Under the pieces are notes generated by a model. The model did not search any database and was not told where the DNA came from. It saw only the letters and a program-made list of their open reading frames with translations. A stretch of 56,388 nt of DNA, counting the filler, from Circinaria calcarea (taxonomy: Eukaryota), in the NCBI GenBank assembly GCA_051942165.1. It is 4 parts of 4 records of this genome, joined end to end, with 100 filler letters (N's around TTAATTAATTAA, not from the genome) between each part and the next. Parts side by side here need not be neighbours in the genome. Positions count along the whole stretch, not along the records: positions 1 to 14,051 come from JAVECS010000459.1; 3 more parts are not named here. The stretch is one strand, 5' to 3'. A program made the position numbers and the translations under genes. Below, piece after piece: positions 1-38,037 of this stretch (the stretch's first letter is position 1; each line of letters opens with the position of its first letter).

Positions 1-99
1 CTTCTTCCTCTGTAATGATTAGTTCTCGCATACACTGCGTATAGCCATCGTATTGCTCGTGCCTCACATTACCACATACCTTAGCTTTAGATACTTTAC

Positions 100-390
100 A
101 AGTAAAGTATTCTACGGCCTTACAAATAACAAAAAAAACTACTTTTTTTATAAAATTTCAAAATCCATAATTATTACAGATATAAAATTCTGAGATTTGA
201 TATAAAAAAACTATATATATTTATCTAAAATCTGAAGGGATTTAAATAAATTTATATATAGAAACGAAGTAGTAATTTATAATATAAAAATAAATCTATT
301 ATGCGACTGACTTCTATTAAGCGACTGACGAGCACTAACTTGTTAGTGCTTTTGAAAAAATTATTTCGCGAAATAATTTTTTCAAAATTT
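100..390. repeat. AT-rich, TpA-rich low-complexity segment at the contig end, possibly a RIP-degraded repeat remnant
   Basis: Abrupt AT enrichment with many TA dinucleotides (e.g. ctatatatatttatctaaaa, tttaaataaatttatatatag) compared with the flanking DNA. No recognisable coding remnant. Confidence 0.4.
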
Positions 391-545
391 ACCCTTGGGC
401 ACGATTATGGGAATGGGCCTTTATCATACGGGTTATTCAGTATCACTACTTCAGCTGAACCGCATAAGCTCCCATCATTGCTTCATTGGGTCAATTCATC
501 ATTGCGCAGAAGAATTCCCATTTAGCTAGCTACGCTACCCTACTT

Positions 546-2002
546 CTACACGTGCACCGCTTGCGATAAAACCGCCGTCCGGAATGTGATTCCCTTGGTC
601 CGCTCGATGACCTGCTGATAGACGGACTGGGGAGGATGGTTCATCACGACCGTACCGTCCCGGTAGTCGATTTTGGCGTCGACGCGGGTGTCGCGGATGA
701 GATTGACGATCCATTTCTCGCCTTCGTCTTGGTTGAGGCCGAGGCGGGTGGAGAGGTCTCTGGGAAGGCTGGGTTAGCTACTTTGCTTGGAGAGTTCAAG
801 GTCGGGGGAAAGATGGGGATGGCAATGAGAGAGAGTGAGGGAGAGAAATGGGCTTACTTGATGTCAATGCGTTGGTGAATCTTGCAATAGCTTTCCGAAA
901 TCAAATGTCTTGCAGCCTCTACGAATGCCTCTGCTGCTGCCACTAGGAAGAAATCCCCTCTTAGCACCTCCTCCGCCTCGCTCAGCTTCTTCTGAGCCTC
1001 TTCGAAGTCGAAATCAATATATAATGCCTTGATGAAATCTGTAATTGGATCATTGTACTCGTAGCCCTCTTGCCTTACTATCCGGACCAGATCCTTCAAC
1101 TGTTTTTGATATTGACCTGTATTCCGGCTGCGGCTGCGGTTCGTGATGACTGCGGCGGCAAGGTAGCGTAAGATCCAGGGGCAGGCGGTTTGAATGGTAT
1201 TGATGAAGGCGGGGGAGAAGAACAGTTCGCAGATGGTATCACGGGCTGGTTCGTAGTTGAAAAAGGGAAAGAGTGTCCAGTGGATGAGCCAGGTTCGATG
1301 TTGGAGTTGCGCGAGCGGGTTATTGAAGAGCTTTGTATCTATTGATTCCTTCACCTTGTTGATTTCGTCCATGACCACCTCCCAGTTTGTGGTTAGGATG
1401 TCCGAGGCCAACTTGCCCCATGACGCGGAGGTAGCTTTGTCGTTGTCGGTGGAGAGGATTCGGAATTGGTCGAGCAGGTGAGCGGCATCAGCGTATTTAC
1501 CGCATTGGTACTGGAAACGGCCGTAATCGTAGAGCATGTCCACCATTTCAATCGTGACGCCGTGTGACTGTTCGAGGAACTTCAGGTTGGCAACTTTGTC
1601 GCTGCGCAGGTTCGTGACCACGCTTTCGTCGTTCAGGAGCTCGTCTATCTGGCTCGTCTCTTCCGAGAAGAGTTGTAACCTCTGCAGGACCTCCTCTCGC
1701 TTCTTGACGAATTCCTCGGGTATCTCGTCGCTATCGTTGATCTCTTGCCAGAGGTTTGCGACATAGTCGGTCATGTTGGTCTGCTTGAGAAGCTCATATT
1801 TCATCTTGGTAATATTGGTGGCATCGTCGCCTTCCTGGCCGGAGAGAAATTCGAGTAGAGGGTAGATCAGGTGTCGATCGAGGTTGGGGATAAGTTTGGG
1901 TAGGAGATCATATTGCTCTGTGATATCTGTAGGGGTTTGCTGTGCTTGTGCCATGTTGCCGTTCAGCATCGCCCCAGCTGAGGTGGGTGTATTGTCCGCC
2001 AT
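546..2002 (-). CDS. INT6: Eukaryotic translation initiation factor 3 subunit E
   Basis: Exons 2002-858 and 759-546 with a GT..AG intron. Motifs [62 protein letters not shown] (PCI domain). Confidence 0.96.
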
Positions 2003-2826
2003 GGTTGCAGGGTGAGTTAATAAAGGTAGAGGTTGTTGAAGTCTGAACGGGCTCAGATATTGGAGTTCGCGAAATGTGTGCCAAGAAGATTGAAATGTTG
2101 AAACGGCTTACGAGCTAACAGTAATACGGAATATATCAACACCCTATCTATTCTACTGCTCTGTACTTGAATGCCTCAATTTACTATTGACACACCTCTA
2201 CCGTACTCTAAATAGTTCCTCCGCTTATTCCAACTTCTCATCCTACCGACTATACGAAATCTGTAACCCTCTGAACTGTCGTGCTAGCATCCCGAACAGT
2301 GCATTCCTTAACTACAACATTCGAGATCTCAAGAAGGACCGGTACTTTGCAGGAGGCGGAAGCAGGGAGAGATAGGGACGTAGCCCAGTGAATCACCGTT
2401 CAAGAAAATCTGGGTCTCGGATGTTTGACTAGGAGATTACGTTGGATGAGACGGGAAGAGTTCAATGGGGCTACTTACGAAACGGGATGCGGGCTGAAAT
2501 GTTGAGTGGAATTGCAGCGCTGGAAATGTCTGACGGAGAGATACTATTCCCTTGGAATAGAATGTGTTAAACCAGTACTATTCGAGAGCAAAGGGGTATC
2601 TCGGATGTCTTGTGTGCTTGCAAAGCTACAAGTAACTACCTTGGTCATAAAATGAGTGTATAAGAGACGATTTCGTCTCGGCGAAAAGCAACCATTCAAT
2701 CCTTGCTGATCGTTCAATCATCGTCCCCCAAACTCAGTTCAAGTAGTAGCCTCGTCCATCCCAACTAAATACCCTCAAGCTAACAATTCTGGCCAAGTCC
2801 CAGCCACTTTAGAGGCCAGCGTGCTG

Positions 2827-3862
2827 CTAATCTTTCAGAAAAGCCTGCTTGAAGTCGTTCGAAGGCCAGCTACTGGGGACCTCCAAAATATTCTTGTCCT
2901 GGGCTCTGCAGCAGGTCCAGCATTCCTGAACAAATATATCAGTCTTTCGTCATATGAACAATAACGCCATATTGCTATTTAACTTACACCAAACTGCCTC
3001 GGGTACTATGGAGTCTGCATTAGTAAAGAATCTCGATTTGAGAGTTACAGTCTTACCCAGGGCTTCTTGCATGTCGGCTTGTCTTCATAGCATATCAACA
3101 GGCAAACTTCACCATCGTCATCTTCCAATTTATGTGCGAGGTTTTTCTTCTCTTCGATGATATTGATTGCATGGGTTGGGCCACTTGACACAAAAAGCAC
3201 TGAAGAAGAATCCCGATGTGTACAGCAGGTCCAGCATTCCTGAATAGATATATTAGCTTTTTCTCATACGAGCAGTTACGAAGTACTAGCATCAACTTAC
3301 ACCGAATTTCTTTGGGTACTATAGAGTCTTCGTTAGTAAAATTTCCAACTTGAGAGATATATTCTTACCGATGGACTCATGCAATCCGGCTCTTCATCCA
3401 TGCATATCCTTAGGCAAGCTTCGCCATCATCCGCTTTATGCACGAGGCTTTTGTTCTCCTCAGGAACACTGACTGCGTGGCTTGGGCTATTTGGTCCAGA
3501 AAGCGTCGGGACGGTAGTACGTTGTCTCGTGCAGCAGGTCCAACATTCCTAAATGGATGTGTTAGCTTTTTTTAGTATACGAACGGTCACACGATATTAG
3601 TGTTGACATACACCGAACTTCTTTGCATACTAGGAAGTTCATATTAGTAAGATCCTCGACTGGAAGAACATATCCTGACCGAGGGTCTCATGCATGCCGG
3701 CTTCTCTAGATAGCATATTGCTAGGCAGATTTCACGATTACCATCTATTTTGTGTGCGAGATCACCTTTCCCTTCGCTTGGTCTCACTGAAACTGTATAC
3801 GAAAGGGGAGAAGCCGTGGCCAAGGTGGCAAGGGTGGCCGCTCCGATCATTGTAAGCTTCAT
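2827..3862 (-). CDS. Secreted cysteine-rich protein (232 aa) with three tandem C-x3-C-x6-C-x11-C-x2-CC modules
   Basis: Exons 3862-3680, 3629-3612, 3548-3369, 3318-3301, 3239-3057, 3005-2988, 2925-2827. All introns are GT..AG and phase 0, with CTAAY/CTGAT branch sites. Signal peptide MKLTMIGAATLATLATA. The spliced frame is open to TAG at 2829-2827. Confidence 0.88.
2905..3760. repeat. Three diverged tandem copies (~310 bp period) of an exon-intron-microexon-intron unit
   Basis: cagcaggtcca(g/a)cattcct recurs at ~2909, ~3223 and ~3532. Intron sequences are also visibly homologous between copies. Confidence 0.9.
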
Positions 3863-6402
3863 CTTGCACTTCGGATATAGTGGCACAGGCCTGTGCTGGG
3901 AAATATTATTTTTGCTATGGGTGTAAGTCGAAACGTCCGAACGGTCGAGCCAGGTTTGGACAGACAGGATGGATTTGATTTATACATCTAGACTCGAGGG
4001 AGCAACTTAGATTCGGAGTGAACCAAATCGATCGGGACACTGCATGTGTGCAAACTATTGGTGTGCAGAAAATTCTCCGCTCCATGCACCTTGTACGTAA
4101 ACTGCCGCCCCTTTGTATCCAGTCAGAGCCTTGAAGCAATCATTGCAGATCATTCATAGGCTACAAGACCTCCGTATTCATGCAGACGGTGCGGGCACGC
4201 GGTTCATCTGCATCTGGAAAATAAGACACGACATGGTACCGAGAGGTAAACCTGGCTGATCGCAGATGATTGGGGCTTTATAACAGTAGGAAATCATTTC
4301 GGAAATGAGTGCCATGTAGAGCTACTGCAACGGAAGTAACTAACTACTAAAGGTGGAAATAGCATGGAAAGATTAATACACAAAAGGTAAGAAATGAAAC
4401 CGGTCTGCAGGATGTAAGCCTAAAGGCAAAAGGACATGCCAATAAATACGGATCGAGATTGACCGAGTTTAGTCATTCGTAATTGCCATTGAGGCGCTGA
4501 CGAAATGTGGTCTCGACCCAGCTACCTAAGCCAAACATGGCGGCCCGTTTTGCAGATTGGATGGCATTACCTTACCTTAGTCCAGCTTGAAGCTTACGCC
4601 CAGCCGTCATTTTTCTCACGAGGTATACGGGTTAAGATTTCATGTCTGGGTCGGGGGAGATCCTGTGATGGAACTGCAAACACTCCCTCGTGCAATTGGC
4701 TTTTCGTGAAGGAGACGAAAAATGGTGAAAAGGTGAAACGTTGGCTCTACTCCATTGGAGCTCTATGGATGCCAATGAATAGTCGGCGTTCCATGGCACC
4801 AGCAGTTCTGAGAGCGTCCTCTCTGTTGACTTGGAGTGCGCGTACGGAGTAGGTACGAAGTACATGTGAATCTTTCGCCTTGATGCGGTAACTCGGAAGC
4901 ACGACCAGTTCGCCAATCTCGATCAGCCGAAGCCCCCCCAACGGGTAGCGCGGAATTAGAATTACTACCGTACGGCTTACATGCACCTTTACCTTTGTAG
5001 GAGGCACTTCAGCAACGAGTCGATTTGGTACCTATACTCCGTACGGCCCAGCCAAGCCATTGCAGGAGTTTCCCATGCATCTCCACACGAGCCTGCAATG
5101 GAGCTTATGCCGGGTCTCGAGGGGGCATAGCTTAACCGTTGCTATCTTAGCTGGCTTGGGGTCTTGGAGCCCTGTATGTGACCATATACACGACTTGTCA
5201 TCATCCCTCTTCAAGGTGCTAAGGGGACGGGGTTTGCGCAGTCTCGAACTAATGATCCAGGCCACGGATGTGAATTGAAACGCCGCCTCGAGTATTAGGC
5301 AGTCGCTCTTCGAAAACATCTCTATAGACGCCAAGTTGGTCCTTCTAATCGTAGTCTTCGGATTGGTCCCCATAGAGATGATCGAAATACTTCCCAGCGA
5401 ATACCTCCTAATATACTACTCAATAATTGACACGGAGTGTCCGTTTTTATTGATTGACGATCGGTCGATCGCGTCAGTCTGACTGAGTCGGTTGCAGCTC
5501 AATGATGCTCAGATGGTAAGCGGACGATGGTTCAAAACTGCCCCGATCTGTTGGGAAGTGCCAATTCAAGTCACCCATGCCAATTCCCTCGCCATATCTC
5601 CCCTACTAGCCGTTATTCGTTCTTTTGTTTCCCTTTTAAGGTCTTAGTCTAATATGTTCTCAAGGAGGAATACTCGCATAGCCATTATATTCTTTTCCAC
5701 TGTAGATCTCGATCTATCTCTTCTCGTGTACGCTTTCATCTGCATATAGGTGGGCTAAGAAAGAGTTCCGATGTAAGGGTGGCTAGGGCGTCCATTGGAA
5801 CCCGTTCTATGATAGGGTAGAAATACAACAAAAAGGCAAGATGCTGTACATACTTTCTGGCACTCCGGCATGCGAGGCCGTGCGGGGAGACTTGGCATCC
5901 CAGACTGACCCTCGTATTTATGCACACCCAAGGGATTTAATATAATCTGAATAGGTAACACTTGGTAGAAGCACCAGCTGGAGGGGTAATATAGAGATAT
6001 TGTCTGTTCCCAGGCTTGATCCTCACTAATCACGCTGGGCATCACATCTTTGTCGACCAGGGTCGTCGAGAGGGTGTAACAATCTTTGGCCGAGAGGAGC
6101 CCAGACATGGCGGGCGTATTACTTATGCACTCACTTTGAAGCTGGACATGGGCGGCGGTGCGTTGAGGAGTCGATGATTGATCTTACTCCGCAACACCGG
6201 TGACCAGATGAGATGCATCACCGATGTGGATTTCCTGCTTATGGGAGGGCTTGCGAGTGAGCTCGGGCCACACTTTTTTCCTTGCCGAGATTTCGCGGCT
6301 AGCGGAATGGCGCTAAGGATAATAGCCGGTGGAAGAAACATCGATACGAACTTATAGCTAGTCGGTACAGAAATCGCAAAATTCTTCAATTCTCAGTAGA
6401 CA

Positions 6403-6965
6403 ATGGCACCCCCATTTCTACTATCTTTCCTGTACCCTCGTCATCCTCCGCGACTGTCTTTGATCCGAAGCTGTCTCCGTACCATATCCACCACTCGCCC
6501 TTTACGGCAAGAAGGTATAGATAGCTAGCTGCCCCCATTCAGCGGACCTTACCTCGTAAAAAAAGAAATAGCAAATCCTGACATCGTATTTTCAGCGTCA
6601 GCCATCACCGCGCCTCCCCAACCCCAAGGCCCCTCACAGGTAACCTCCTCCGTCCTCCCCACCTACCACGTCAACCGTACACCCTCCCAGCAACTCCCCG
6701 TCTACCACCTCGCCAAGCGCGGCGGGAACCTCAAGCAAACGCGGATCCGGAAGATCAGCGGGGATGTCGCGAGTCTGCGGCAAGATCTCCAGCAGGCGCT
6801 GGGCTTGAGGGAAGAGCATATCGTGATTAACCAGTTGACCAAACATATCATTATCAAGGTAAGAAGTAATGGAGCGGAGCTTTCCTTCCTTGGCTTATGA
6901 TTGGGATGATCTAGGGTTGGAAGAAAACGGAGGTAGCCAAGTTTTTGCAGGAGAAACGGTTCTAG
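6403..6965 (+). CDS. IMG2: Mitochondrial large ribosomal subunit protein mL49 (Img2)
   Basis: Three exons. Arg-rich presequence MAPPFLLSFLYPRHPPRLSLIRSCLRTISTTRPLR, then YHVNRTPSQQLPVYHLAKRGGNLKQTRIRKISGD...HIIIK/GWKKTEVAKFLQEKRF*. Not in the ORF track. Confidence 0.9.
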
Positions 6966-7522
6966 AGGGGCCACATAGGATCCACGAATTGTTGCGGGAA
7001 TACCCCCAGGAGGTTGAGATGGTACGGGGCTATCTACAATCGACACCAAGAGGGCCGTCATACGGGGGTGCCGCTTAGCCTCGATTTCCTGGACCGCTTG
7101 GCGCAAATCTAAAGGATGGCCAAAGCTGACATTTGAGTATCGCGGGAAGCCGATATACCAAGATACAAACTTACTGGCCTTTATAAGTGAGCTTGTCGGC
7201 GCCGAATACTTGGCTTCCGTTATCAGAGGGGGTTGCCTCCTAGCATGATATCGGGAAAGCACGGATGGTTGGGTGGAACCGCTTTGGTACTATATTGAGG
7301 CTTCGTCTCTAAAAGAAAATTTGGACAGAAGCCATTGGAATGGGTGAAGGCTTGATCAGTCCGGCTCTTATTCTGTGTAAAAAAATCTAGGTAGCGTCCC
7401 CGAAAGGCTAACATGGTTACCGCTGTTGCTTCATAAACAGGCCGTACTTTGCTATACTCACATCCAAAACGCGCCTCGCTATGCCATGCGGATTTAAAAG
7501 TCACTCATTTGCAGCTGTTTGT

Positions 7523-9860
7523 TCAAGTCTCGAGGACAACTCCTCCTAGTCCCATCCGCATGTTTTCCACCGTCTTGGCCCCTACTCCCTTCAGCCGTCC
7601 CAGCTGTCCAAGGCTGCCAATCACTCTCTCTCCCTTCTCCTCCTCCTCATCATTCTCACCTGTACACAATGCCTCTATGATGACTTCTGCCTTCTTCGCT
7701 CCGACGCCTTTGAGTAATCGGATCTGCTTGATGTCCCTCGTATTAATGATGCCTAGGAGGTGCTTCGTCCGAGGCGTATGGACGATATCTGGTTCCGAAT
7801 GGGATCGTGCGATGGTTAACCTCGTCCTCGAACGTGGTCGATGGATTTCTTGGGCTTTTGGCCGATAGCGGAAGCCATCATGAGAACCGTCTTCCAATTC
7901 ATCTGATGAGATCCTAGAGTCCTTAAACTCAGCCTCGGCTTCGGGGTCGTCACAGACTTTTACTTCCAACCCTCGTCTGAGGACTTCGCTGGGTAGCCTC
8001 GTCAAAGATGGTGGCTGTATATCTGGACTTTCTTGCTTCTGTCGTGTCGATTCCTTCTTCTGCCTGAGCTGCTGTCGTAGCTTCAGAATCTTATTTTCAA
8101 GCTTTGCATTGTCTGGGAAATGCTCCTTGGCAAGTTCATACATCTTCAAGGCACTCGTTGCCTCTCCTCTTACATAATGTTGCTTGGCCATCAAGAGGAA
8201 GGTTAATCCTTCGGCTCTGCTGTCACCATTACCTTCGATCTTCTGCTCCAGCGATTCTAGTCTCTGCTGTACTTCTTCGCTGAGAACAGAGACGGCTGCT
8301 TCCGATGGTTGGTCTAAGGCACGAGACGCAAGGATCTCGCTGACTTTCCTCTCAATGATTTCTTCGATGGTGGCTTTGGACATGGTAGGTTGTGCTCTCC
8401 GTATCGGAGAAGGGCTTGGACGAGCAATCTTAGAGGGCCGTGATGCTGCGGATGTGAAAGTTTCAGAAGGCCGCTTTAACGGCGAGGAGCGGAGATGAGT
8501 CTCAAGTTTGCGTGTTTGGTAGGATGTGTTGGAATGTCGAGGTTTTGACATATCAGAATAGACCGAGAAAGCTTTCAAAGGCTTATCGCCCGTCTTCGAC
8601 TGGTGAGTGGTGGTATTGATAGCGGCATTATGTACGGCGCTTGCCAGTGGTCTCAATGGCTGGCGCTGCATCGAGCACACATTGGAAGATGGCAGTGTTT
8701 TGGAGTAGGTGTCGAGGTTTGGCTCATTTTCGAAGACTTTAATTTCAATCTTTTTGGTTCTATTTGCGAAGTTCAAGGAACTGAGGGTGTCAAGATGGTA
8801 AGATCTAACTGGTGCAAGATTCAGAATCATGATTGTAAGTCCGTTATTCTGACCAAGGGATAGGATTCTCGTCATCTTTGACTCGCGGTAAGGAATCCGG
8901 CTCTGCTTCTTACTGATGGCTTCGACACACTGAGCAAGTACGAACAAACTTTTGTTGATACTGGCGGACTCCACCAGTCTTTCCTTGCCATTACCAGCCC
9001 TCCGGTTATCTTCGGAACCGGCAAGATCAATTGCAGATGCCATACTGACCCTTGTTTCTTCTGCTGTAGAGACGGCAACCTTGACACATAAGATTGCATG
9101 CGATCTAGACGAGTGTGCATTAAGCTACAGTATTTGGTTAGTGTGCGCCTGGACTGACTCCGAGGTATGTCATACCTTCGTCGCACTGGTTGAGCGATTG
9201 ACGTTCGCCTCACTGTATAGCTTCTCGAACTCTTTCAGGCTCTCACATGGCCTCTCGGTCAATCCAACTACCACGGTCTTTCCGCCATTGTCACGCAACT
9301 GCAATCCCGTCATTGTCCTCTTATCCGGAGCCTCAAACAAATCAAAGACCTTGTCATTATATATCTCGTAGTAACTCATAGTAACGTTCACGGTAGTCTC
9401 GTTCTTGGCGTCCTTCTCTATCTTCCTGCTTCTCCTGTAGATGCCGCTGAGTAACCGAGGAATAACACCACGTTCTGCCAACGTCTTACCGCCTCGCATT
9501 GTGTGAGTCTTGCCGGTACCAGTGACCCCGTAAGCGAACAGCGTAATATCGAAGCCATTGAAGAGGTGTTTAACGGTAGGTGACACTGTAGCCGTGATCA
9601 ATCCTACCAATCAACATGTCTCCCAAGCGCAATAACTACCTACCTTCGTTGTCAAAAATATCCTGCTGCGTCGCCTCGGGCCCATAAACACTGTTGAATT
9701 GGAAGTTGAAGTTCTCGTTATCGTTCTTTGGATTGGGAACGCGCACAACAGTCGGTTGACTCGACGGTTCACTCCCTGCACTGACTGCGGTGACTATAAC
9801 ATCCTTATTGAGCTCCGATTGCAAGAGTGGCCGCACGCGCGCCACAACACGTACAGACAT
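7523..9860 (-). CDS. Kinesin motor protein with C-terminal helix-hairpin-helix motifs (kinesin-10/KIF22-like)
   Basis: Exons 9860-9644, 9585-9176, 9124-7523. MSVRVVARVRP, P-loop AYGVTGTGKTHTM, switch motifs NAHSSRSH and DLAGSE, RIPYRESKMTRIL. C-terminal LKGVGAKKA / LKGVGAKTV HhH repeats. Confidence 0.92.
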
Positions 9861-10371
9861 GGTGTCTTTAGCAGTATTCTACAAAACTCAGGTCTCCGCA
9901 AAAAGTAGTTCAGCACATCATGAATTGACGGCGAACATGGGTCGTGAGCTTGGCACTCTCTGGGGAGGAGGTCGGCTCGTTTGTTGTCTCGGTGCAACTT
10001 CGGCTGTTGTCGGGAGAACAGCTGGGATTTTAACCGTCGAGTGCTGCCCTACTCCAAATAACACACCTATATCTTTGTATTAAGTCGCAACTATTTAAGG
10101 AGAGCAGTTGTACTTGGTATAGGCCGAATTGGAGTTGATGTAATAGGTCATAAACAGATACTGCCGCCAAAGCTGTGCATGAGTAGGTTGCTATACTACT
10201 CTGTAGTCACCGATATCACGTCATCCTCTTGGTAATTCAAGCCAGCGTCAGGAGCTCTTTAATACCTTGAAAATGGTAGTTTGAATGCGTTGAGAAATAA
10301 GAAAGATCTTAATCTAAGGATGCATATGTAGGATTGGCAGTTTTGCACCTCGCCGACCAACGTTATCCCAC

Positions 10372-11463
10372 TCATTCATCCGCCATCGGATCAGCTGGCG
10401 GCTCATCAAATTCCACTACCGGCCTGTCCGTAGGCCTTGGGAAATATCCTTTCGAAAAGGAAGGAGCAACGATTCTATGATCCGAGGCGTATTGAAGTAC
10501 GGCGTCAAAATCCCTGCACTGGTGTTGCACGTTGAAATTTGGGTGAGGAGCAAAATGACCTTTGATCCAGTTATAGGTGATGATGTTCGTATCGGCATCA
10601 CATATTAGCTTCTGGCGGAGGATATCTGTGCAGTGGTCTGTAGGATTCGTCAGTGAGCTTGAACCCCAGATAGCCAGTACTTTTGGTCGGAATTTACCAA
10701 TGTGTTTATGCCATGCTTCAGGATGCTCCCTAGAGTAGCTAGATGATGCGGTATAGTAATCTGGATAAGTTACCTCCCAGAGACTTTGCTACAATCTAAC
10801 TGTTAGCTAGGTTGAAACTTTCCGGGATTCTGTGTGAAGTTACCCACCAGGCAATGGATCTGGTGAATGGTTTCGAATAAAGCCAAACGACCGCCACCCA
10901 ATTCAAGGGGCACCTTCACCGCATGCTTCGACGTATTCAGTTGCTGGAGAACCTCTTCTGTGATGCTCATAGCACCGACTATTAAATCCATGTTAGCACT
11001 GTTTAAACTCCAAAAGCAGATCTCCATACGATGTGTTAAGCTATTCCAAGCCTTATCAACTGTAGGTGAAGGCGGCCCCTTAAAATTTGAGGACTGATCA
11101 AAAGTCCCGTTGAACCTCACGTTTCTGTAGGTATCGGGAACTGAGCCCATAATCAGGGCTAGACATGGCAAGTAGTTAGCGTGCTTAGCAGTACCTACGA
11201 TCTTATATATAACTTTACTCACACCATTTTGTATGCTGTGTTAAGCAGTCTTGCGGGATCGATTTCTTGAGAATAAAGGTAGATATCAGCATTGCCCCAG
11301 AGATCGAGAATAATACAACGTGTATTATCCAGGGTATTGCTTTTCTGAACAAGTTCGATGCCACTTGATGCTGATTTTGTAGGTCCCCCGTATGTCCTAG
11401 TAGAGATTCTTCTCCATCTTCTGTGTTCTTCAAACATGCCGTCGAGAACGCTTCATATTCCAT
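10372..11463 (-). CDS. DUF3328 / UstYa-family oxidase (285 aa), single N-terminal TM helix
   Basis: Exons 11463-11223, 11158-11030, 10978-10848, 10788-10698, 10637-10372. TM segment WIIHVVLFSISGAMLI, F-x-GPPSPTVDKAW, two HxxHC motifs (HQIHC, HIDHC), then ILRQKLMCDADT and PNFNVQHQCRDFD. Confidence 0.92.
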
Positions 11464-12372
11464 AATGCAGAACTTATCTATACAGTCAGATCTTAAACAC
11501 GGTTCGGGCCGGGTATGGTCAATAAATGAACTTCTATGCCGGGCGCATCAAGCTGGGAAAGCGGTCGGATAGGCGACGGCCGTATCTTCCTGTTCCTATC
11601 ATGCAACGAAGAAAGATATTCTGACGCCAACTCTTTCATGTCTGATAGGAATCTAAAACCCACCCATGCCACACTGACCATCCTAAATGGATGGAATATC
11701 TTGGCTAGAACGGTGAGCAAGCTGAGTGGGGTGGAAGATCTGGAATCATTTCCGATGCCTGGTCCATGGTGGTTGCATATAGACTTTGGTATCCATGATA
11801 GACGGTCTAACAATCCCTGCTACATCCTTTTCTGTTGATCTTTCCCGGAAACAGAGGCTCTGCATGACGCGCAACACTGTATTTGGGTAAGGCAAGAGGG
11901 ACGAAGAAGGCAAGATGGGCATCAAACGGTCTCGGTGCAAAGGATTTGCATTCTTTCATGTAAGAGTATGTGAGAGGGAGGCACAGAATCATGGAGTACC
12001 AGTCAGAATAGAATCAAAGAACCGGACGAGGCCTTGAAAAGGGAGTCAAAAGCGAGACATGACAAGACACAGGCATTAAGATGCAAAAACCACAAGCTAT
12101 CTCGACAGAATGGGAACAGCAGCCTAACGGGACTAGCAGGCCCTTAAGCTGTTATTGTGGGCACGGCTACGCTAATGCAGGCAACCCATTGTTAGTCCTA
12201 TCTCTCTTGCATTGCCAAGTGGCTTTGACGAGTGATTCTCCTGTTACCGATTTTACTTGAAAAGCAAACGGAACCTGCTTGTTTTCAACTCTTTCATTGA
12301 CCGTGATCCTTCTCTGCAAAGACATACCTTTTCCAATCCCAGTACTCGATTTCTAGTCCGCGAGCCACTAAG

Positions 12373-12647
12373 ATGCGGCTCGCCATCCTCTTCCTCGAGC
12401 TTGTCGCGGTACTGCCCCTTGTCTTGGGAGCTCCGATAGCACCTAAAAGTACCGGCTTATTGCTTGCAGCACGAATGAAGCTTATATTTGTATAGGTTCG
12501 GACTCTATCAACAGCATGATCTTTTACTACAATCAGGATCTAATCGAGCGTGGCAAGGAGGCATCGGAGGGACTCGCTAAACGTGTGGATATCGACAGCA
12601 TGGTCCTCCGCTACGACGAAGAGGTGATTGAACCAGGCAAGGAGTAG
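12373..12647 (+). CDS. Putative RiPP precursor / Kex2-processed repeat peptide (75 aa)
   Basis: Exons 12373-12448 and 12496-12647 with a 47-nt GT..AG intron. MRLAILFLELVAVLPLVLG-APIAPKSSD-SINSMIFYYNQDLIERGKE-ASEGLAKR-V-DIDSMVLRYDEEVIEPGKE*. Signal peptide, KR site and 84-nt internal repeat. Divergent from the DUF3328 gene. Confidence 0.75.
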
Positions 12648-13551
12648 TTGGAGGGACTCAGTACACGCGTGGAGACCGAAAGCATCATCTCCATTTGATG
12701 TGCTAGAAGGGCTCAAAGATGGTAGACAGAGCACAATCTGGAGCGGTATCAAGTCATGATGTTTTTCCCGAGTTTCAACGGAACGTAACGAACTAACGTG
12801 GGGCAAGAAGTCGACGGGGTTCTGTTAGATGGCTTTGGTCCGTTAGTTCAGAATAAACCAAAAAAAGATGCGTTAGGATGCCTTCAACTGCGCTGTGCCT
12901 CCTCTATGCATGTAGTTGACTATTGAATGGAAATCGATTGTGATGGTCTGCGAATGCGGGAAGTAAGCACTCTGTAGCGTTGTGGCTCTCCTAATTGGCT
13001 TTAGCCTGGGAGTGAACGGCGCATCCCCGCATATGACTTGCATTAGATCAAGGCACATTTTGGCCTCGCAATGGCAACGGGGAAGATCACGAACTCGAAT
13101 GTGGCAGGTGTCACCACGCGGATACTACGTTACGCGGGAATGGTTCTGATTGTGGTTACCGATGATGCGGATACACCAGACTTTTTGCCAGATCCGAGTT
13201 TCATCCACACGATTTCGGGTGGGCCTGGGCGACCCATAACAAAATGTCTCCTTATTTGTGGGGAAGGGGGGAAAAATCGACCACGGTTGACATCATCGAT
13301 AAAGCAAAGTTGCTCGCGATCAGATATCTCTGTGCCTAGGCTTACTTACGATACTGTACCGAGTGCCAGCATCAGATATCTCTGCCTCGGGTGTCAATCC
13401 CAGCTTTCTTTCCAAATGTAATCGGCTACGTTTGAAAGTAAAAATCCGAGCTAGATATATTCCACTTTCTCCGAAAAGCTCTCAAGCAGTTTGGTAGAGA
13501 AGACTAGAGTCTTGCTGTTTGAAGATATACCAAGAGTTTGAGATTTTGATA

Positions 13552-14051
13552 ATGGATCCAGAAGGCGAGAAAACCTCACGACTTTCTCAGGTCAACAATT
13601 CTCACGATGCAGCAACGATCGAGAAGGGTGTAACAGCTGAAGCGTGCAGTACGGCAGAAAACGAGGTTACCACGCCAGCTGTATTCGACTCAGTACCCGT
13701 CAGGAAACTCCCCTTAATATCAAACAGTCCTCAACGCGTGAAAGTTATCCAACTGCTTGGAGCTCTAGCTGCTATCGGGGCCGGAACAGCGAGGCCGCTG
13801 ATGACTCTTGTTTTTGGAGGATTAGTCAACAAATTCAACAGCTCTGGTGATCCTGTTGCGCTGAAAAACCTTATCGATCACGAAGTCCTGTTCCTTGTAT
13901 ATCTCTTTGTCGGTCAATGGGTTCTCGTTTGCAGCTATGGCATTTTCTTCTCCATCTCCGCCATGCGCTTTTCAACCAAACTTAGAGCCGCCTATCTACG
14001 TGCTGCAATATCACAGGACTTCAGGGACATAAGCCAAGGCGAAGTGGCCAA
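13552..14051 (+). CDS. ABC transporter, ABCB/MDR type (5' part only, cut by contig end)
   Basis: First TM-domain pattern GALAAIGAGTARPLMTLVFGGLVNKF...LFLVYLFVGQWVL...KLRAAYLRAAISQD. Confidence 0.85.
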
Positions 14052-37229: not shown

Positions 37230-38037
37230 ATGAAGGTCACCACAGTTCTCATCGCCCTCGTCGGAGCGACTTCCGTAGTACAGGCAGGTGGTGTTGGCAA
37301 GGCCATCAAAGGCATCTTTTCACGTGATCCAGAGTTCGCCAGAGCGGTACTTGGTTAGACCCCCCCTACACCTATAACTAGTGACGACCAGCTAAACCAA
37401 TCTCTCAGAGGCACGAGACAGGACTATTAAAGAATGGCAGCAGGCTGTCGCGAACCCATCAACCATTTCCCCAGAGATGATGAGTGCTCTCAAAGCTCAG
37501 GGATTCAAGCCACCACCCGGAACCAAGACAAAGCGAGGACCTTCCCCTGCTAAGGGAAACTCCATCCCGAAAAAAGAGGCCCTCGCCCATGTTTCAAAAG
37601 GAAATCAGATTCCACAGCCGGTGCTCCAATCGATGGCCTCAAAAGGGTGGAGCGGTCCCAAACTTGGGAGCAAATCGAAGCGCGACGTTGACGAAATCTA
37701 CGCCCGTGAAGCTGAGGCCATCGCTGAGGAGATCAGCAACTTTGCCCGCGACCTTGAATCCGCCATTTTTGCCCGCGACGCTGAGGCCGACTTCGAGGAA
37801 CGTGACTTCGAGGAGCGCGACTTTGAGGAGCGCGACCTGTACGAGCGCGACCTCTTCGAGCGTGACGCCTACCCCGAGGCGTACTTTGAGGAGCGTGATC
37901 TCTTCGAGCGTGACGCTTACCCAGAGGCTTACTTCGAGGAGCGTGACGCCCTTCCCGAGTCTTACTTCTACGAACGTGACGCCATCCCAGAGCCGTACTT
38001 CTTCGAGCGCGACGCAGAGGCTGTGGAGTCTTATTAA
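37230..38037 (+). CDS. Secreted Kex2/Ste13-type polypeptide precursor (250 aa) with basic peptides and acidic ERD repeats
   Basis: Exons 37230-37353 and 37409-38037. Signal peptide MKVTTVLIALVGATSVVQA, two KR sites and many xR-D/E junctions. Strong C/G-ending codon bias. Confidence 0.85.
37790..38020 (+). repeat. Coding tandem repeats DFEER/DLYER/DLFER (15 nt) and DAYPEAYFEER-type (33 nt)
   Basis: The repeated gagcg(c/t)gac core is visible in the DNA and the translation. Confidence 0.9.

What the first reader, a model, noticed from the sequence alone, without database searches (positions are those of the whole stretch)
12373..12647. 75-aa precursor with two non-identical cores, invisible to the ORF track
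The repeats align without gaps: SINSMIFYYNQDLIERGKE and DIDSMVLRYDEEVIEPGKE (consensus I[ND]SM[IV]xxY[ND]x[DE][LV]IExGKE), separated by ASEGLAKR, with an 84-nt period. The Tyr and acidic flanks are kept while the two residues before Tyr vary, which fits a conserved recognition sequence around a variable core. FYY in repeat 1 recalls the asperipin-2a core FYYTGY, but the rest differs. The model depends on a 47-nt intron with a weak donor (GTACCG) and branch site (GCTTAT).
Basis: partly seen in the sequence, partly recalled or inferred. Interest (0 to 1): 0.8.

Follow-up and report, generated by a model that had tools for sequence, protein, structure and literature searches.

The report
Fungal cyclic-peptide precursor near orphan receptor
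A tiny two-exon fungal gene encodes the precursor of a probably ring-closed peptide; in related fungi its family sits beside a copper ring-forming enzyme and one particular kind of membrane receptor-like gene, which hints at a peptide signal and its sensor inherited together.

Summary
The 75-aa two-exon gene model is real in the sequence, and the repeat is conserved in relatives. It lies head-to-head with an intact DUF3328/UstYa gene (both HxxHC motifs) and upstream of a full ABCB exporter. A metagenome scan gave 32 loci of this UstYa subfamily. In 21 of the 23 with enough upstream DNA, a precursor lies head-to-head: signal-peptide exon, phase-1 intron, then 1-4 units of aliphatic-aliphatic-[KRH]-Tyr-x-x-Asp-aliphatic. 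The closest relative shares the intron position and a weak donor. So this is a dikaritin-type RiPP precursor of a short, often KR-less family that three-repeat surveys miss. FYY is a one-off variant, not an asperipin core. A decayed third unit follows the stop, so the copy may be eroding. New: one distinct group of Pth11-like 7TM genes flanks the pair in 21 of 32 loci, and in this genome it lies about 14.5 kb away on the overlapping contig. A peptide-receptor module is possible (about 35%) but untested. Splicing and product are not shown. The scan's earlier notes held no look-alike.

The parts
12373..12448 (+). Precursor exon 1: signal peptide (about 19 aa, likely cleavage before Ala-Pro, with an unusual Glu at residue 9 of the hydrophobic stretch) plus 6 residues
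   Evidence: Sequence and hydropathy; tblastn match to the signal exon of L069/L070, 13 of 23 residues. SignalP could not be run.
12449..12495 (+). 47-nt phase-1 intron, weak donor and non-canonical branch site
   Evidence: L069/L070 have a phase-1 intron after the same codon 25 with donor GTACTA. 10 of 16 detector models in relatives also lack CTRAY (two of these, L075/L076, probably have the intron misplaced by the detector). Splicing inferred, not observed.
12504..12560 (+). Unit 1 (anchor Tyr at 12528-12530; Tyr instead of the family's basic residue at -1)
12561..12584 (+). Spacer ending in LxKR, predicted Kex2 site
   Evidence: Sequence; cleavage inferred from known kexin specificity
12588..12644 (+). 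Unit 2 (anchor Tyr at 12612-12614; Glu instead of the family's Asp at +3)
12645..12730 (+). Stop codon followed by a decayed third unit (spacer and start of core recognisable, then out of frame)
   Evidence: 33 of 48 nt identical to unit 2; alignment A1. P0001/P0002 continue with a further unit at this place. L069/L070 also have a decayed unit after their stop.
10372..11463 (-). DUF3328/UstYa oxidase gene: 5 exons, 4 canonical introns, 285 aa, N-terminal membrane helix, HQIHC and HIDHC motifs, no internal stop; head-to-head with the precursor
   Evidence: Pfam PF11807; gene model; relatives in Dothideomycetes and lichen fungi
11464..12372 (.). 909-bp intergenic region between the divergent UstYa and precursor starts; likely shared promoter
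   Evidence: Coordinates; regulation inferred
13552..14051 (+). Start of a full-length ABCB-type exporter (2 membrane + 2 ATPase domains) that continues on G000:C2387
   Evidence: Pfam; exact 141-nt contig overlap
1..141 (.). Exact 141-nt overlap with the end of G000:C125, which carries the Pth11-like 7TM gene (about C125:17630-18770, minus, 4 exons, no break seen) and an FMO-like gene, about 14.5 kb from the UstYa stop

Best explanation
A dikaritin-type fungal RiPP precursor of a short-precursor family tied to one DUF3328 subfamily. Likely pathway: (1) the intron is spliced and the signal peptide takes the 75-aa chain into the ER (inferred); (2) the neighbouring membrane-anchored dicopper DUF3328 binds the acidic follower (Tyr-x-x-Asp-aliphatic-aliphatic-Glu) and cross-links the Tyr side chain to an upstream residue, most likely the aliphatic/aromatic residue at -2 or -3, less likely the conserved Val/Ile at -7 (inferred by analogy to AprY and GigB); (3) kexin cuts at LxKR and unlinked peptidases trim the flanks, giving two different small cyclic peptides (inferred); (4) the ABCB transporter aids export or self-protection (inferred). 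Shown: gene anatomy, intact enzyme, conserved head-to-head pairing, conserved intron and motif, and linkage to one group of 7TM genes. The product's role is open: I favour a local signal or regulator sensed or handled by the linked 7TM protein somewhat over a pure toxin, but that step is only about 35% likely.
For: Intact UstYa 909 bp away with both HxxHC motifs. Same head-to-head precursor in 21 of 23 related loci with at least 1.8 kb upstream: 16 by a scripted detector, 5 more by reading. The detector gave 0 hits on the opposite strand or downstream in all 32 loci and 0 in 222,477 nt around other UstYa genes of this genome; in the window its only hit is this exact model. Closest relative L069/L070 (77% UstYa exon identity) has the same intron position and a similar core. 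phmmer over 1.84 billion proteins found 2 relatives, E about 8e-9, with the same roughly 28-aa unit. Flanking genes differ between loci while precursor, UstYa and 7TM stay together. Literature passages: DUF3328 enzymes are dicopper oxidases and AprY is a cyclase (PMC12435403; PMC12186524).
Against: No transcript, peptide or enzyme data. The detector motif was written after seeing these loci, so its hit rate is partly circular. L099 has long flanks and no precursor upstream, and L074 shows none in 1.9 kb. DUF3328 proteins also act on non-ribosomal peptides and polyketides (PMC12048977). The window copy has erosion signs: third unit lost, Glu in the signal core, no CTRAY where all 4 UstYa introns have one, each unit off consensus at one conserved site, and 11 of 20 codons differ non-synonymously between units against 2 synonymously.
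Confidence: 0.72

Rival explanations
1. Same family, but this copy is decaying: a former multi-unit precursor now truncated, poorly spliced or poorly secreted, with little or no product.
For: Decayed unit after the stop; weak donor and branch site; Glu in the signal core; off-consensus residues in both units; the 7TM gene is no longer adjacent (14.5 kb); the second, 93% identical copy of the region (C384) ends at window 7545 and no second cassette copy was found.
Against: Start, frame, both splice dinucleotides, KR site and both anchor Tyr are intact, as are UstYa and the ABCB frames. L069/L070 show the same pattern of a stop followed by a decayed unit, and 5 of 14 related types are single-core, so shortening is normal in the family.
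Confidence: 0.2
2. The peptide is released as an unmodified linear pheromone-like peptide and the DUF3328 acts on something else.
For: Signal peptide plus KR-separated repeats is also the alpha-pheromone layout, and a receptor-like gene is linked.
Against: A Tyr-anchored unit occurs in every precursor type and the head-to-head pairing with UstYa is kept in 21 of 23 loci. Pheromone KEPs are almost never beside DUF3328 genes (PMC7329392 abstract). No PKS or NRPS domain among the C459, C2387 and C47 ORFs scanned.
Confidence: 0.06
3. The cluster makes an asperipin-2a-like bicyclic peptide from FYY.
For: FYY in unit 1; minimal cluster of precursor, one DUF3328 and a transporter, as for asperipin (PMC6514808).
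Against: No second Tyr three residues on; FYY is in 1 of the 21 distinct family units; no isoflavone-reductase gene among nearby ORFs.
Confidence: 0.02

Closest known systems
Asperipin-2a cluster (aprA, aprY, aprT, aprR) of Aspergillus flavus
   Same: Minimal set of precursor, one DUF3328 oxidase and a transporter; no tyrosinase or methyltransferase nearby; Phe-x-Tyr spacing in unit 1 (PMC6514808 passages; which Tyr links to Phe is recalled).
   Different: Core is not FYYTGY; one anchor Tyr per unit; ABC-type transporter and no reductase; only two units.
Epichloecyclin cluster (gigA, gigB, gigC, kexB) of Epichloe
   Same: About 27-28-aa units, LxKR sites, one conserved Tyr near the end of the core, conserved follower, single DUF3328; single-repeat gigA-like genes are known (PMC10540207 section 3.1 and passages).
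   Different: No N-F-K-x-P-Y core, no SET methyltransferase or kexin gene in the cluster; GigB homology could not be tested.
KEPs / ust-RiPS of Umemura 2020 and Le Marquer 2019
   Same: Signal peptide, Tyr-containing repeats, DUF3328 as next gene (PMC7329392 sections read).
   Different: That survey needs at least 3 repeats between dibasic sites; this gene has 2 units and one KR, 5 of 14 related types have one core, and 8 of 15 have no KR/RR in exon 2.
Pth11-like (class 14) fungal GPCRs inside biosynthetic clusters
   Same: PF20684 7TM gene linked to biosynthetic genes; 4.2% of Pth11-like genes lie in clusters and their metabolites were suggested as ligands (PMC12842992 passages).
   Different: Reported mostly near PKS and NRPS-like genes; here one sequence group tracks one DUF3328 subfamily and one peptide family.

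Membership tests
Dikaritin-type fungal RiPP precursor | Clustered DUF3328 protein with two HxxHC motifs | tested here: met
   PF11807 hits, HQIHC and HIDHC, intact 285-aa model 909 bp away
Dikaritin-type fungal RiPP precursor | N-terminal ER signal peptide | tested here: inconclusive
   Hydrophobic stretch, small-residue cleavage site and homology to relatives' signal exons, but Glu at residue 9; SignalP not available
Dikaritin-type fungal RiPP precursor | Repeated cores with a conserved Tyr, separated by a Kex2 site | tested here: met
   Two units at 84-nt period with one LxKR; Tyr anchor conserved across relatives
Dikaritin-type fungal RiPP precursor | DUF3328-dependent side-chain cross-link in the product | not testable with these tools
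   Needs heterologous expression and MS/NMR
KEP as defined by Umemura 2020 | At least 3 tandem repeats of 8 aa or more between KR/KK/RK/RR sites | tested here: not met
   Two units, one KR (definition read)
Asperipin-2a (AprA) family | FYYTGY core with two cross-linking Tyr | tested here: not met
   FYY is followed by NQD; unit 2 has LRY
Asperipin-2a (AprA) family | Isoflavone reductase aprR in the cluster | tested here: not met
   None among ORFs of 120 aa or more scanned in the window, C2387 and the C47 end; short exons could be missed
Epichloecyclin (GigA) family | 9-mer core with conserved Lys and Pro-Tyr; kexin gene in the cluster | tested here: not met
   Neither motif nor an S8 peptidase found nearby (paper)
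Epichloecyclin (GigA) family | DUF3328 orthologous to GigB | not testable with these tools
   No GigB, AprY or UstYa reference sequence was delivered by any tool; PDB sequence search gave 0 hits
Ustiloxin/phomopsin clusters | YxIx core after ED, tyrosinase, methyltransferase, several DUF3328 | tested here: not met
   Different core; one DUF3328; no tyrosinase or methyltransferase hit nearby
Peptide ligand plus cognate receptor module | Conserved linkage of one receptor-like lineage to the precursor | tested here: met
   21 of 32 loci; members score 184-256 bits against 66 for the next paralog fetched
Peptide ligand plus cognate receptor module | Binding and G-protein signalling | not testable with these tools
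   No binding or signalling data

The most novel reading that the evidence does not exclude
Filamentous ascomycetes carry a compact signalling cassette made of a short precursor, a dedicated copper cyclase and a cognate Pth11-like receptor: a self-made cyclic peptide signal with sequence-diverse specificity groups, comparable to bacterial peptide quorum sensing. It would give an orphan Pth11-like lineage its ligand and recast some dikaritins as hormones rather than toxins. The window holds a rearranged copy with two variant cores and the receptor gene 14.5 kb away.
Probability: 0.35. Interest if true: 0.88.

Novelty: new variant of a known kind. Interest (0 to 1): 0.66.

Why it matters
Two open questions become testable. 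[quoted passage not shown] Here a simple rule (signal exon, phase-1 intron, Tyr-x-x-Asp unit, head-to-head with this UstYa subfamily) recovers 49-60-aa single-core precursors that repeat-based searches cannot see, and the subfamily includes lichen-fungus proteins. Second, Pth11-like proteins are the largest fungal receptor-like family, and the passages I read name no peptide ligand for them; the cassette offers about a dozen natural peptide-7TM pairs for a cross-activation test. Some cores carry a Cys pair ahead of the Tyr, which suggests a disulfide plus a Tyr link. On its own, the window gene is one of at least seven DUF3328-linked precursor candidates in this genome and is not surprising.

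Tried and rejected
Word-index searches with exon 2 found nothing and with the 3-sequence profile only P0001 again; both looked only at longer proteins. The metagenome scan with the precursor profile found 319 pattern matches and 0 confirmed. ESM Atlas gave no usable hit. PDB sequence search with the UstYa profile gave 0 hits. No second precursor copy in G000. Other splice options: of the GT/GC-AG introns of 40-129 nt giving 55 aa or more, only 12449-12495 keeps the full signal peptide and both units with a GT donor. A general link between DUF3328 genes and PF20684 genes in G000 is not supported: within 7 kb 11 of 36 UstYa contigs against 4 of 35 ketosynthase (p 0.045) and 16 of 84 P450 contigs (p 0.13); within 4 kb 6 of 36, 2 of 35 and 10 of 84 (p 0.14, 0.33). 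These lists are lower bounds, and extra exon rows on contigs already counted were left out. A single inversion would explain the separated 7TM gene, but window 1-10400 and the C125/C47 flanks matched no related locus apart from ABC domains, so it is unconfirmed. The 7TM tree was rooted on a long-branch row that fell inside the group; monophyly was not formally tested. Acalitide (PMC10840396) was checked for the Cys-pair cores and rejected. No structure or complex prediction was run, because neither the enzyme nor the 7TM protein exists as one unspliced frame. Earlier-finding look-ups by place, sequence and words found no look-alike.

Full report
Observation. The model is in the sequence as described: ATG 12373, a 47-nt phase-1 intron at 12449-12495 and a stop at 12645-12647 give 75 aa; the unspliced frame ends at 12495. 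The two units repeat at 84 nt with 44 of 66 identical bases. Across the whole window and lags 30-150 only one other site, an unrelated repeat gene near 37.8 kb, reaches this level. After the stop a third unit is still recognisable (33 of 48 nt identical to unit 2) and then goes out of frame. The window is a join of contigs; the finding lies on G000:C459.

Neighbourhood. A DUF3328/UstYa gene starts 909 bp away on the opposite strand. It has five exons, four introns with canonical donors and CTRAY branch sites, 285 aa, a membrane helix and both HxxHC motifs. Downstream an ABC transporter starts at 13552 and continues as a full two-by-two-domain ABCB gene on C2387, joined by an exact 141-nt overlap. 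No tyrosinase, methyltransferase, reductase or peptidase was found among the 48 window ORFs scanned. The genome has 71 UstYa exon matches on 36 contigs, and at least six ordinary repeat precursors lie beside others. The finding's precursor is single-copy.

Relatives of the precursor. phmmer with exon 2 against 1.84 billion proteins returned 2 unnamed proteins (E about 8e-9) with two or three units of the same kind, continuing past the place where the window has its stop. The UstYa exon 5 search gave 14 proteins at 48-77% identity, named ones from Lindgomyces, Lojkania, Zopfia, Pleomassaria, Lophiotrema, Alectoria and Thelotrema. Their alignment found 32 metagenome loci. Of the 23 with at least 1.8 kb upstream, 21 carry a head-to-head precursor: 16 by a scripted detector and L078, L079, L081, L097, L098 by reading. 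L099 and L074 are misses. The detector's motif was written after seeing these loci, so the hit rate is partly circular; its controls are not: 0 hits on the other strand or downstream in all 32 loci, 0 in 222,477 nt around other G000 UstYa genes, and in the window only this exact model. The 21 collapse to 14 types; five have a single core in 49-60 aa. The closest, L069/L070, has the intron after the same codon, a similarly weak donor (GTACTA), one core and a decayed unit after its stop.

What is conserved. Listing every Tyr in exon 2 of the 15 types without a filter gave 42; 24 fit aliphatic(-3), Asp/Glu(+3), Ile/Val/Met(+5), in 13 of 15 types. In the 21 distinct units among these, -1 is Arg or Lys in 16, -7 is Val or Ile in 15, and -4, -8, -9 vary most. 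So the constant part is the Tyr with its hydrophobic-basic lead-in and acidic follower, and the variable part lies further upstream. Window unit 1 is the only one with Tyr at -1, and unit 2 has Glu where relatives have Asp at +3. Eight of 15 types have no KR/RR in exon 2; some have single-Arg sites. Four types carry a Cys pair ahead of the Tyr (L082, L083, L086, L091).

The linked 7TM gene. Pfam scans of 118 ORFs (114 from 12 related loci, 4 from C2387) showed a fungal rhodopsin-domain (PF20684, Pth11-like) gene beside the pair. tblastn places it in 21 of 32 loci (16 distinct), in both orientations relative to UstYa and sometimes with an ABC gene between. Four loci with 8 kb downstream lack it (L077, L098, L099, L100) and seven are too short to tell. 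Other neighbours differ from locus to locus. A profile built from six members scores the group at 184-256 bits and the next fetched G000 paralog at 66. G000 lists PF20684 matches on 138 contigs, yet only C125 and C384 hold this group, at 69-73% identity to L070's gene. C125 overlaps the window start by exactly 141 nt, which puts the gene about 14.5 kb from the UstYa; C384 is a 93% identical second copy of the region that ends at window 7545. UstYa and 7TM identities correlate over 14 loci (Spearman 0.39; 4 of 5000 permutations; same nearest neighbour in 12 of 14), which shared descent alone could give. Against over-reading: PF20684 genes are common near secondary-metabolism genes, and their general enrichment near G000 UstYa genes is weak; the quick tree was badly rooted; and nothing shows G-protein coupling. 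That PF20684 also covers cluster-resident membrane proteins of unknown role is recalled, not from a call.

Mechanism. Shown: anatomy, intact partners, conserved pairing. From established knowledge: DUF3328 proteins are membrane-anchored dicopper oxidases and AprY forms Tyr-O to C-beta ether links (PMC12435403 and PMC12186524, passages); GigB cyclises through Tyr with a follower of unknown fate (PMC10540207, passages and section 3.1). Inferred: ER entry, follower-guided Tyr cross-linking to -2/-3 (or -7), kexin cut at LxKR, trimming, export. I put a working dikaritin-type gene at 0.72, a decaying copy at 0.20, a linear peptide at 0.06 and an asperipin-like product at 0.02. The receptor reading is a separate 0.35.

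Comparison and novelty. It works like the asperipin and epichloecyclin clusters but fails their core tests, and it fails the three-repeat KEP definition (PMC7329392). Six motif terms from the family had 0 hits in 8.1 million PMC papers and 0.36 million preprints and six related terms had 0 in four supplements of PMC6339444. In three listings, no paper showed both a Pth11 or fungal-rhodopsin term and DUF3328 or UstYa in a RiPP context (listings only; one Colletotrichum signalling paper held each term once and was not read). Limits: sequences in figures are not searchable; Nagano 2016, Kessler and Chooi 2022 and Chiang 2025 (not held) were not seen; the KEP table of PMC7329392 was read only in part 1 of 60 and holds accessions, not sequences; bioRxiv supplements were closed. 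Multi-repeat members may therefore already be catalogued as a KEP type. Papers seen: PMC7329392 (abstract, sections 7 and 13, part 1 of section 6, passages), PMC12048977 (abstract, section 22, passages), PMC10540207 (section 13, passages, supplement search), and passages only for PMC6514808, PMC12435403, PMC10840396, PMC12186524, PMC9233826, PMC6339444, PMC12842992 and bioRxiv 10.64898/2026.06.16.732702.

Verdict. A real precursor gene of a known class, in a short-precursor family with an unreported-looking link to one Pth11-like lineage: new variant of a known kind, interest 0.66.

Noticed in passing
window about 2900-3980, minus strand: Tandem array of 3-4 small secreted Cys-rich genes (signal peptide, C-x3-C-x5-C, CWTCC; about 69% mutual DNA identity) between the 7TM/FMO pair and UstYa; no match in L069-L100.
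   Followed up: partly
window about 37230-38037, plus strand (another contig): Secreted protein with many Glu-Arg-Asp-bounded repeats, periods 15, 33 and 48 nt; looks like a kexin-processed repeat protein with no DUF3328 hit nearby.
   Followed up: no
L034, L037, L041, L043, L049/L055, L056 (G000 C1070, C320, C883, C1349, C1887/C3542, C1815): Six further repeat precursor candidates with Tyr- or Trp-containing units beside other UstYa genes.
   Followed up: no
G000:C384 against C125 and window 405-7545: Second copy of the region at about 93% identity, suggesting two haplotypes, strains or a duplication; no second copy of window 7546-13910 was found.
   Followed up: partly
L082, L083, L086, L091-L093: Cores with a Cys pair just ahead of the anchor Tyr, suggesting a disulfide ring plus a Tyr link.
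   Followed up: partly
L069/L070, L083, L091-L093, G000:C125 and C384: An FMO-like flavoprotein gene is divergent from the 7TM gene in these loci; S53 peptidase genes flank the precursor in L069/L070 and L076, and an S10 carboxypeptidase in L069/L070.
   Followed up: partly
L073, about 300-560 minus strand: Near-identical copy of the L077 precursor with a frameshift in its second unit.
   Followed up: no
L097/L098 upstream of UstYa: Divergent precursor type with two Tyr per unit (Y-x-G-V-F-L-N-R-Y) and no linked 7TM gene in 8 kb.
   Followed up: partly
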